A stretch of 64,000 nucleotides of DNA from the human T2T-CHM13v2.0 reference genome, Homo sapiens: assembly GCF_009914755.1 (NCBI RefSeq), contig NC_060945.1; one strand, written 5' to 3'. Each line of letters opens with the position of its first letter. The stretch's first letter is position 1. Made by a program: the position numbers and the translations under genes. Below the pieces are notes generated by a model, which saw nothing but the letters and a program-made list of their open reading frames with translations, was not told the origin of the DNA and searched no databases. This document shows positions 27,325-29,498 of the stretch, in pieces.

Positions 27325-29168
27325 CAGGCTGACTGTTTGCTCCCGGAGATCTGCGGGCACTGGGAAACATGCAGGGAATTGTGGAAGACTGGCATGGTAC
27401 CTTCGCTCTCCTTGCCAGTTTCCAAACCGGCCGCACTGCAGACTCCCCATGTTGCCGCACACGGGAATCCATCGTCAGGCCATCACGCCAGGGACACATC
27501 TTCTCTCTGGGGTCTCGCTCTGGTTTCCTACGTGGAAATGAACGAGAGCCACACGCCTGCGAGTGTGAGACTGTCCTGGCAATGGCGACACCCACAGGCA
27601 CTGCCTCCTTCACGGAGAGAGGGCCTGGAACTCTCAAGACTCCCACGGAAGTTCAGTTCCACACTCGCGTCCACCCTCCCAGGCCGGTTTCTCCCTTCTG
27701 AAGATGCGTGGGAGCCCAGAGAGCAGCTTCCAGTTCCTGCGGGATTCCTGGAGAGGTCCAGAGAGCCAGCACCTGAAACGCGACTCCCTCACAACTTCCC
27801 CCTCGCCCCCTTCCTCTTCGTCTCTCCGGCCCCACCACCACCATCACCACGCCCTCCCACCCCACCACACCACTCCCCGGACACTTCCTGGGTGTGGCGG
27901 GCTGTCCCAGGGCTCAGCGCCATTCATGAAGGGGTGGACCCTGCCTACCTCTGGGCCTTTATAAGAGCCGCTGGCTCGCTGTCCAGTCAGGCCTCCTGGC
28001 TGCACGTTCCGCAGTGCACAGGCCACCTGAGGTGCACGGGAGCCCGCCGTCCTCTCTCTGCCTGTGTCCGTCCGTGAAATTCCGGCCGGGGCTCCCCGCG
28101 GTGGCCCTCCCAACACCTTCGGATGGCACACTCCCTACGGAAGCCCAGCGACGGGGACTGCGAAGGAGACTTGTTTGGACACGGAGCCAAAGCGAGGCCC
28201 TGCGAGCCTGCTTTGAGCGGAACCCCTACCAGGGCATCGACACCAGAGAACGGCTGGCACAGGCCATCGGCATTCCGGATCCAAGGGTCCAGATTTGGTT
28301 TCAGAATGAGAGGTCACGCAAGCTGAGGCAGCACTGGCGGGAATCTCAGCCCTGGCCCGGGAGACGAGGCCCGCAAGAAGGCAGGCGAAAGCGAACCGCC
28401 GTCAACAGATCCCAGACTACCGTACTCCTCCGAGTCTTTGAGAAGGATCGCTTTCAAGACATTGCCACCAGGGAACAGCTGGCCAGAGAGACGGGCCTCC
28501 GGGAGTCCAGGATTCAGATCTGGTTTCAGAATCGAAGGGCCAGGCACCCGGGACAGGCTGGCAGGGCGCCTGCACAGGCAGGCGGCCTGTGCAGTGTGGC
28601 CCCAGGCGGGTGTCACCCTGCTCCCTCGTGGGTCGCTTTCACCTACACCGGTGCGTGGGGAACGGGGCTTCCCGCACCCCACATGCCCTGTGTGCCTGGG
28701 GCTCTCCCACAGGGGGCTTTCGTGAGCCAGGGAGTGAGGGCCATCCCCATGCTCGAGACCAGCCAGGCCGCACCGGCAGCGGGGATGTCCCAACCTGCCC
28801 CGGCACGTGGGGATTTTGCCTATGCCGCCCCGGCTCCTCCGGAAGGGGCTCTCTCCCACCCTCAGGCTCCTTGGTGGCCTCTGCACCTGGGGAAAAGCCG
28901 GGAGGACCGGTACCTGCAGCGCGACGGCCTGCCGGGCCCTTGCACTGTGGGACAGTCTGGGCCCGCTCAAGTGGGGACACAGAGCCAAGGTGTGCTTGCA
29001 CCACCCGCTTCCCAGGGGAGTCCGTGGTGGGGCTGGGTCTGGGGAACCCAGGTCGCCAGGGCAGCTTGTGAACTGAAAGCCGGGGCAGCTCCACCTCGCC
29101 AGCCCGTGCCCCCGGAAGCCTCCGCATGGCAGGGGCAGATGCAAGGCATCCGGTCGCTATCCCAGGCG
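27325..29168 (+). repeat. D4Z4-like DUX cassette 4 (3'-truncated, inverted)
   Basis: Standard 5' junction and promoter; DUX homology ends at ...tcccaggcg (29168). Confidence 0.92.
27960..27964 (+). promoter_or_regulatory. TATAA box of cassette 4
   Basis: ctttATAAgagccgc at the DUX4 TACAA-box position, about 140 bp upstream of the start-codon position. Confidence 0.6.
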
Positions 29169-29498
29169 GGATGCCCCGGGATGCCCAGGAAAGAATGGCA
29201 GTTCTCCGCTGTGTGGAGTCTCCGCTGTGTGGAGTCTCTCACCGGGCCTAGACCTAGAAGGCAGGAATCCCAGGCTGGTCAGCCCGGTGGAGGTGGCGTG
29301 GGGAAGACACGACCCTACATAGCCAGCCAGGTGTTCCCTGCGAAAGAGAGGCCACCGCCCTGCCCTGAGCCGACCCCTTCCCAACCTTGCATCCTAAAGC
29401 TCCTCCAGCAGAGCTCGGTATTCTTCCTCACTGAGGGGTGCTTCCAGGGAGGTGGCCCCTTCCAAGGCCTCCAGCTCCCCAGGGGCCTCCGTTTCTAG
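28101..29498 (+). pseudogene. DUX4L: DUX4-like open frame with two intact homeodomains, GTG in place of ATG and a chimeric C-terminus (465 codons); pseudogene or non-AUG CDS
   Basis: No stop from GTG 28101 to 29498; helices [11 protein letters not shown] and [12 protein letters not shown] intact; DUX4 homology to about codon 356, then antisense sequence of cassette 5; first in-frame ATG is at 28683, after both homeodomains. Confidence 0.8.
29203..29238. repeat. 16-bp tandem duplication TCTCCGCTGTGTGGAG
   Basis: Two copies at 29203 and 29219; single copy in the other cassettes. Confidence 0.9.

What the first reader, a model, noticed from the sequence alone, without database searches (positions are those of the whole stretch)
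28101..29498. Inversion-made chimeric DUX4-like ORF: both homeodomains intact, activation domain swapped for antisense sequence
Seen: 465 uninterrupted codons from GTG 28101 (G at -3 and +4) behind a TATAA box. Both recognition helices match DUX4, with an N-arm change R20L. DUX4 homology ends near codon 356 and the last ~110 codons are the antisense strand of cassette 5. Known: the DUX4 C-terminal LLLDELL and [11 protein letters not shown] region recruits p300/CBP, and forms lacking it (DUX4-s, DUX4c, leukaemic DUX4-IGH) bind DNA with altered output. Inference: if translated from GUG, this is a germline-encoded competitor or neomorph of DUX4. It is the only DUX4-type copy here without a nonsense lesion.
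Basis: partly seen in the sequence, partly recalled or inferred. Interest (0 to 1): 0.8.

Follow-up and report, generated by a model that had tools for sequence, protein, structure and literature searches.

The report
Start-less chimeric DUX4 pseudogene on chr21p
The long open frame is real and was made by an old inversion inside a satellite-embedded DUX4-like repeat, but it has lost its start codon and has drifted like its dead neighbours, so it is most likely an ordinary pseudogene that escaped stop codons by chance.

Summary
Window 28101-29498 (+) is 465 stop-free codons with two Pfam homeodomains. It is collinear with DUX4 to codon 356 (89.4% nt, no gaps). It then runs antisense into the neighbouring minus-strand copy. 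The inversion is real: segment 22922-29168, satellite included, is flipped. Both junctions recur only on chr14, 15, 21 and 22.

The functional reading is not supported.
- The GTG is the family's ATG, lost: 11 of 12 other copies keep ATG.
- No AUG can deliver the homeodomains.
- On its own lineage the copy took 70 substitutions, 49 nonsynonymous to 21 synonymous. Twelve dead copies give 613:231 (Fisher p=0.68). DUX4 took only 24.
- Escaping stops has P about 0.05 per lineage and about 0.47 for one of 13.
- 21% of 110-codon windows in these repeats are stop-free.
- There is no AATAAA or ATTAAA downstream, and CpG is decayed as in dead copies.
- One paralogue has E365* and another F113L.

Verdict: a neutrally evolving D4Z4-like pseudogene, a new member of a known kind, of low interest.

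The parts
27960..27964 (+). TATAA box 141 nt upstream of the GTG. It is a family feature, not special to this copy.
   Evidence: One search gives the position; 5 of 6 other copies in the window carry TTTATAA at the same place, while the chr10 D4Z4 unit has TTTACAA.
28101..29498 (+). Chimeric open frame: GTG, 464 further sense codons, then TAG.
   Evidence: No gene model at this place in the RefSeq table supplied with the finding.
28101..28103 (+). GTG at the position of the DUX4 initiator ATG (start-codon loss, M1V).
   Evidence: GTG against ATG in chr10; 11 of 12 other copies have ATG and one has ATT; all four paralogues have GTG.
28123..28326 (+). First AUG after the GTG. It is out of frame (+1) and opens an unrelated 67-codon frame.
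28155..28334 (+). Homeodomain 1 (codons 19-78), with 6 residue changes against DUX4, including R20L.
   Evidence: Domain limits are taken from PMC12376486 (passage read).
28380..28559 (+). Homeodomain 2 (codons 94-153), with 11 residue changes against DUX4. The RRKR arm and the QN..R helix are kept.
28683..28685 (+). First in-frame AUG (codon 195), downstream of both homeodomains.
29168..29169 (.). Right inversion junction: plus-strand unit cut at codon 356, joined to the 3' flank of the minus-strand unit.
   Evidence: The 25-mer across it occurs 4 times in the genome.
29169..29498 (+). Tail of 109 codons plus the stop. It is antisense to the 3' flank and last ~35 codons of the minus-strand copy, and contains a 16-nt tandem duplication at 29204-29235.
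   Evidence: 16-18 gap positions against other copies. The duplication is read. No Pfam domain.
29389..30662 (-).
22922..29168 (+). Inverted 6.25-kb segment: a 3' part of one D4Z4-like unit (22922-23884), 68-bp beta-satellite in flipped orientation (23953-27320), and a 5' part of another unit (27477-29168).
   Evidence: unit map; the satellite consensus is the reverse complement of those at 21000-22579 and 31457-34000.
22907..22922 (.). Left inversion junction, between a minus-strand unit end and a plus-strand unit fragment.
   Evidence: The 200-mer across it is full length only on chr21, 22, 14 and 15 (4 of 40 scored, of 897 candidates).

Best explanation
This is a non-functional, neutrally evolving DUX4-like pseudogene. 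It lies inside the beta-satellite/D4Z4-like composite repeat of the chr21 short arm. An old inversion of about 6.25 kb cut one D4Z4-like unit at codon 356 and joined it head-on to the 3' flank of a neighbouring unit. That produced a read-through frame in GC-rich DNA, where stop codons are rare. The copy lost its initiator ATG (now GTG). It then took as many substitutions, of the same kind, as copies that are plainly dead, and it happened not to acquire a stop. The whole rearranged block later spread to four acrocentric short arms (chr14, 15, 21, 22). Shown: the anatomy, the start loss, the neutral substitution pattern and the paralogue set. Inferred: that no protein is made, and the order and age of events.
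For: Anatomy. Start loss: GTG against ATG in 11 of 12 other copies. The upstream alternative ATG at 27926 is out of frame with a 12-codon frame. The first AUG after the GTG, at 28123, is out of frame. The first in-frame AUG is codon 195. Neutrality: the stem of the four-copy clade carries 70 private substitutions, 49 N: 21 S, at codon positions 27/19/24. Pooled, the 12 dead copies give 613 N: 231 S (Fisher p=0.68). Chr10 DUX4 has only 24 (13:11). The N fraction is 0.70, 95% CI 0.58-0.80. Pairwise omega against DUX4 is 0.49, inside the dead-copy range of 0.47-0.80. Homeodomain residue changes number 17 of 120, against 14-24 in dead copies. CpG o/e is 0.57, against 0.54-0.68 in dead copies and 0.79 in chr10 DUX4. 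Among the four paralogues the DUX4-like part has more variable sites (1.87%) than the flanks (1.15%, 1.11%). Chr14 has E365* and chr15 has F113L at the conserved core Phe of HD2. Chance: P(0 stops)=0.047 per lineage and 0.47 for at least one of 13. 21% of 110-codon windows are stop-free. No AATAAA or ATTAAA downstream. Literature: divergent D4Z4 copies in these composites had 81-94% median CpG methylation in blood of FSHD1, FSHD2 and control subjects (PMC10620044, section 8 read).
Against: (1) Only 1 of 18 listed DNA-contact residues is changed, against 2-5 in each of the 12 dead copies. Poisson P(<=1) is 0.105, which is not significant. (2) Among the four recent paralogues, variable sites in codons 1-356 are 10 N: 10 S, where 13.9 N are expected under class-matched neutrality. 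The one-sided P is 0.05, uncorrected. The excess of synonymous changes lies in the linker (6 N: 9 S), not in the homeodomain region (4 N: 1 S). (3) By a simple count of stops per copy (mean 3.9 in codons 1-356) the chance of none is 0.02. (4) Expression was not tested. The methylation data read are from blood only, not from germline or cleavage embryos.
Confidence: 0.9

Rival explanations
1. One reading: the frame is translated from the GUG, or from an AUG supplied by an upstream spliced exon, when acrocentric heterochromatin is open. It yields a double-homeodomain protein without the activation domain, which competes with DUX4 at its sites as DUX4c or DUX4-s do.
For: Both homeodomain frames are open and 17 of 18 listed DNA-contact residues are kept. 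There is a G at -3 and +4. The frame is open for 57 codons upstream of the GTG. Three of four paralogues keep the whole frame and all four keep codons 1-364. There is a weak excess of synonymous change among the paralogues (P=0.05). Forms lacking the C-terminal domain can compete with DUX4 (PMC12376486, passage read).
Against: The ATG is lost and the first AUG met by a scanning ribosome is out of frame. Substitution on this lineage is neutral in pattern and amount. CpG is decayed and there is no poly(A) signal. Chr15 has F113L and chr14 has E365*. The repeat class is heavily methylated in blood. There is no gene model, and no paper in the library holds the junction peptide or k-mer.
Confidence: 0.03
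2. The locus matters as RNA, not protein. A transcript crossing the junction would fold into a very long imperfect hairpin. It could feed small-RNA pathways that help to silence D4Z4-type repeats.
For: The arms are 86% complementary over 1281 nt, with further inverted matches out to 26000 and 32650. A 1364-nt stretch across the junction folds almost end to end, at -1130 kcal/mol. There are nine perfect arm runs of 21 nt or more, and 403 of 3811 21-mers are shared with a chr10 D4Z4 unit. The block is kept on four chromosomes.
Against: There is no evidence of transcription. The hairpin follows mechanically from any inverted repeat. The arms are no more alike (85.4%) than any two units in the window (84-86%), so nothing suggests that pairing is maintained. 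The class is methylated. No shuffle control was available at this length.
Confidence: 0.04
3. The junction is an assembly artefact of a hard-to-assemble satellite region.
For: Acrocentric short arms are repeat-rich. This is general knowledge and not a result obtained here.
Against: Both junctions are present on four chromosomes, each with private substitutions (7, 7 and 19 differences in the ORF) and with different satellite lengths between the junctions (6254, 6186, 6117 and 6163 bp).
Confidence: 0.01

Closest known systems
Divergent D4Z4-like / DUX4-like copies in the LSAU-beta-satellite composite repeats of acrocentric short arms
   Same: About 90% nt identity to DUX4 exon 1 (89.4%). A shortened unit (2.5 kb of 3.3 kb) embedded in 68-bp satellite. 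Occurs in both orientations. PMC10620044 (section 8 read) reports 319 5'-truncated copies at about 90% identity, in both orientations and highly methylated. PMC12963445 (passages read) lists 26 partial units at chr21 p13.
   Different: This copy is cut at codon 356 by an inversion junction, reads on into antisense sequence, and carries no internal stop. I found no description of this junction or frame (passages read). The supplementary figures and PDFs of those papers could not be read and may list it.
DUX4c (DUX4L9), the inverted truncated D4Z4 unit proximal to the 4q35 array
   Same: An inverted, truncated unit whose frame keeps both homeodomains and swaps the C-terminal activation region for unrelated residues (PMC12376486 and PMC13558733, passages read).
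   Different: According to those papers DUX4c has an ATG, homeodomains identical to DUX4 and a 32-residue alternative end caused by a frameshift. It is also detected as a protein. Here the ATG is lost, 17 of 120 homeodomain residues differ, and the 109-residue end comes from antisense sequence across an inversion junction.
DUX1 and other acrocentric double-homeodomain frames lacking the C-terminal domain (170-389 aa)
   Same: The same repeat family and the same chromosome arm. DUX1 itself lies in this window at 52962-53474 (-) (PMC13558733, section 9 read; translation).
   Different: Those frames start at ATG and end at a point nonsense mutation. The present one has no ATG and ends in antisense sequence, and it was not among the 170-389 aa predictions listed in that section.

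Membership tests
Functional DUX4/DUXC-type double-homeobox gene | Two paired-type homeodomains in one frame | tested here: met
   Pfam PF00046 twice. Collinear with PDB DUX4 chains over residues 2-152.
Functional DUX4/DUXC-type double-homeobox gene | AUG initiator upstream of homeodomain 1 | tested here: not met
   GTG at the ATG position. The upstream ATG at 27926 is out of frame. The first in-frame AUG is codon 195.
Functional DUX4/DUXC-type double-homeobox gene | Conserved C-terminal activation domain | tested here: not met
   Homology to DUX4 ends at codon 356. The tail is antisense sequence with no Pfam domain.
Functional DUX4/DUXC-type double-homeobox gene | Purifying selection on its own lineage | tested here: not met
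   49 N: 21 S among 70 private changes, equal to the dead copies (p=0.68). DUX4 has 24 changes. Among the four paralogues the result is borderline (10:10, P=0.05).
Functional DUX4/DUXC-type double-homeobox gene | Polyadenylation signal and stable transcript | tested here: not met
   No AATAAA or ATTAAA on + between 28101 and 36000. Transcripts themselves are not testable with these tools.
Acrocentric D4Z4-like (LSAU-BSAT) DUX4 pseudogene copy | About 85-91% identity to the D4Z4 DUX4 frame, in a shortened unit | tested here: met
   89.4% over 1067 nt. Only unit coordinates 1-2537 of 3310 are represented.
Acrocentric D4Z4-like (LSAU-BSAT) DUX4 pseudogene copy | Embedded in 68-bp beta-satellite on an acrocentric short arm | tested here: met
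   TRF period 68-69 on both sides. The window is chr21:992001-1056000 (hub note).
Acrocentric D4Z4-like (LSAU-BSAT) DUX4 pseudogene copy | Disabling lesion and neutral drift | tested here: met
   Start-codon loss, truncation at codon 356, and neutral N:S and CpG decay.
Acrocentric D4Z4-like (LSAU-BSAT) DUX4 pseudogene copy | Dense CpG methylation | not testable with these tools
   Indirect only: CpG o/e 0.57. For the class, PMC10620044 reports 81-94% in blood.
DUX4c-type inverted truncated unit | Inverted, truncated D4Z4 unit with a replaced C-terminus | tested here: met
DUX4c-type inverted truncated unit | ATG start and homeodomains identical to DUX4 | tested here: not met
   GTG start, and 17 of 120 homeodomain residues differ.

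The most novel reading that the evidence does not exclude
A four-copy family on chr14, 15, 21 and 22 of GUG-initiated (or splice-supplied AUG) double-homeodomain proteins without an activation domain. It would be made only when acrocentric heterochromatin is demethylated, in the cleavage embryo or germline, and would damp DUX4 output by competing for its sites.
Probability: 0.03. Interest if true: 0.7.

Novelty: new member of a known kind. Interest (0 to 1): 0.15.

Why it matters
If the frame were translated, it would be a natural DUX4 antagonist encoded on four acrocentric arms, which would matter for zygotic genome activation and for FSHD. The evidence here says it is not. The practical value is smaller. 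The result documents a specific inversion block, shared by four short arms, that is useful as a marker of exchange between acrocentric arms. It shows that a long stop-free DUX4-like frame in these GC-rich repeats is expected by chance. It also warns that primers, probes or peptide searches aimed at DUX4 can hit such copies.

Tried and rejected
(1) The absence of indels against DUX4 as a sign of constraint. Rejected, because copies with 5-6 stops also align without gaps. (2) Pairwise omega of 0.49 as a sign of constraint (out-of-frame controls 0.94-0.99). Rejected, because dead copies give 0.47-0.80 against DUX4. The signal comes from the shared path and from DUX4's own branch. (3) A fold-back duplication as the origin of the palindrome. 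Not supported, because the arms are 85.4% alike, no closer than any two units. (4) A simple reciprocal two-break inversion. It does not fit. In unit coordinates the junctions imply about 0.6 kb missing from one parental unit (1769-2360) and about 0.6 kb present twice (1566-2182). This is left unexplained. (5) A copy on chr13. None found: 4 matches genome-wide at up to 2 mismatches. (7) The readable spreadsheet supplement of PMC12963445 held primer tables, with no coordinates near this locus. (8) Not done: structure prediction, because the fold of the homeodomains is not in doubt and would not bear on expression. Comparison with apes or other human haplotypes was not possible with these tools.

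Full report
**1. What is there**

Window 28101-29498 (+) reads GTG, 464 further sense codons, then TAG. From stop to stop the frame is 522 codons, opening at 27930, with no Met upstream of the GTG. Pfam finds two homeodomains and nothing else. PDB chains of human DUX4 align to residues 2-152 without gaps (5z6z, E=7e-78).

The genome holding the window could be searched, so I used a canonical D4Z4 unit from its chr10 array as reference. ORF nt 2-1068 align to the DUX4 frame at 89.4% with no gap. ORF nt 1068-1398 align to the opposite strand of the same unit, from 213 nt past the DUX4 stop back to 104 nt before it.

The antisense donor is the adjacent minus-strand copy (29389-30662). That copy keeps its ATG and its C-terminal region but has six in-frame stops. 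The inverted-repeat arms are 27888-29168 and 29595-30875, 86% complementary.

**2. The inversion**

I mapped a 3310-nt chr10 unit onto the window. Five ordinary units lie on the minus strand, each covering unit positions 1-2537. The rearranged stretch reads:
- minus 2537-2361
- junction at 22907/22922
- plus 1566-2536
- satellite
- plus 1-1768
- junction at 29168
- minus 2182-1

The 68-bp satellite between the junctions (23953-27320) has the reverse-complement consensus of the satellite outside them (21000-22579, 31457-34000). So a 6.25-kb segment is truly inverted.

The two ends are not reciprocal. About 0.6 kb is missing from one inferred parental unit and about 0.6 kb is present twice. I could not explain this. 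The arms are no more alike (85.4%) than any two units of the window (84-86%), so this is not a recent fold-back copy.

**3. Paralogues**

A 200-mer across the right junction is full length on chr21, chr22, chr14 and chr15 only (4 of 40 scored, of 951 candidates). The junction 25-mer occurs exactly four times in the genome at up to two mismatches, and not on chr13. The left junction is shared by the same four chromosomes. Junction-to-junction distances are 6254, 6186, 6117 and 6163 bp.

The four ORFs differ from the window copy by 0, 7, 7 and 19 substitutions and by no indels. All four begin with GTG. Chr14 has E365* in the tail. Chr15 has F113L at the conserved core Phe of homeodomain 2, as well as G87W and T107A.

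After these four, the nearest relatives of the DUX4-like part are the canonical arrays at 89%. A tree places the four on one long stem in a star-like family, with DUX4 on a short branch.

**4. Can it be translated?**

The GTG sits at the DUX4 initiator position. Of 12 other copies compared, 11 have ATG and one has ATT, so this is a derived start loss.

DUX4 can also use an upstream ATG that extends its frame by 60 codons (PMC12376486, passage read). In this copy that ATG, at 27926, is out of frame and opens only 12 codons. The first AUG after the GTG, at 28123, is out of frame and opens 67 unrelated codons. The first in-frame AUG is codon 195, past both homeodomains.

That GUG initiates far less well than AUG in mammalian cells is recalled knowledge, not a result here. 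There is no AATAAA or ATTAAA on + from 28101 to 36000. The TATAA box is shared by 5 of 6 other copies in the window.

**5. Is it under selection?**

Pairwise omega against DUX4 is 0.49, with out-of-frame controls at 0.94-0.99. But 12 copies that carry 2-6 stops give 0.47-0.80. The signal therefore belongs to the shared path, not to this copy.

I polarised changes against the majority of the other lineages:

| Lineage | Private substitutions | N : S | Stops |
|---|---|---|---|
| Stem of the four-copy clade | 70 | 49 : 21 | 0 |
| 12 dead lineages, pooled | 844 (55-97 each) | 613 : 231 | 36 (counted within N) |
| Chr10 DUX4 | 24 | 13 : 11 | 0 |

The stem changes fall at codon positions 27/19/24, and 24 of them are CpG transitions. 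The stem does not differ from the dead copies (Fisher p=0.68).

From the stop rate of the dead lineages, 3.0 stops are expected in 70 changes. That gives P(0)=0.047, and P=0.47 that at least one of 13 lineages escapes.

Other measures agree:
- Homeodomain residue changes are 17 of 120, against 14-24 in dead copies.
- CpG o/e is 0.57, against 0.54-0.68 in dead copies and 0.79 in DUX4.
- Among the four paralogues the DUX4-like part has more variable sites (1.87%) than the flanks (1.15% and 1.11%).
- The tail is unremarkable, since 21% of 30006 windows of 110 codons in the D4Z4-like segments are stop-free.

**6. Results that point the other way**

- Only R20 of the 18 DNA-contact residues named in PMC5990521 (passages read) is changed, against 2-5 in each dead copy (P about 0.1).
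- Among the paralogues the split is 10 N: 10 S where 13.9 N are expected (one-sided P=0.05). The synonymous excess lies in the linker, while the homeodomain region has 4 N: 1 S.
- A plain count of stops per copy gives P(0)=0.02.

None of these survives the fact that the open copy was picked out of many for being open.

**7. Literature**

- PMC10620044 (section 8 read). T2T-CHM13 holds 319 5'-truncated divergent D4Z4 copies at about 90% identity, in both orientations, in LSAU-BSAT composites. Median methylation in blood is 81-94%, including in FSHD2.
- PMC12963445 (passages read). It lists 26 partial units at chr21 p13 and describes other paralogous DUX4-related frames on chr1, 14 and 22.
- PMC13558733 (section 9 read). 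It reports acrocentric frames of 170-389 aa without a complete C-terminal domain. It places DUX1 at chr21:1,044,962-1,045,474, which is window 52962-53474.

No paper in the library holds the junction k-mer or the junction peptide. Supplementary PDFs and figures of these papers could not be read.

**8. Verdict**

The proposed function is unsupported. The best explanation is a start-less, neutrally drifting D4Z4-like pseudogene whose frame stayed open by chance (confidence 0.9). It is a new member of a known kind, of low interest.

Noticed in passing
window 52962-53474 (-): An ATG-initiated 170-codon frame with both homeodomains, ending at a point stop (translation). PMC13558733 places DUX1 at exactly these T2T coordinates. 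The RefSeq table given with the finding calls the locus a 'putative double homeobox protein 3' pseudogene.
   Followed up: partly
window 22907/22922 and 29168/29169: The two inversion junctions are not reciprocal. In D4Z4 unit coordinates, about 0.6 kb (1769-2360) is missing from one inferred parental unit and about 0.6 kb (1566-2182) is present twice. The mechanism is unexplained.
   Followed up: partly
window 29204-29235: A 16-nt tandem duplication in the 3' flank of the minus-strand copy, read. Other copies lack 16-18 positions here. It is not a multiple of three, so it sets the frame of the ORF tail.
   Followed up: no
window 22815-29268 and paralogues on C22, C14, C15: The distance between the two junctions is 6254, 6186, 6117 and 6163 bp on chr21, 22, 14 and 15. 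The differences of 68 and 137 bp suggest gain or loss of 68-bp satellite monomers after the block spread.
   Followed up: no
window 29168-31307 (-) and 2466-4940 (-): These two units are 89.5% alike, while all other unit pairs in the window are 84-86% alike. This hints at a more recent duplication or at conversion between them.
   Followed up: no
window 27960 and equivalents: Acrocentric units carry TTTATAA where the chr10 D4Z4 unit has TTTACAA.
   Followed up: no
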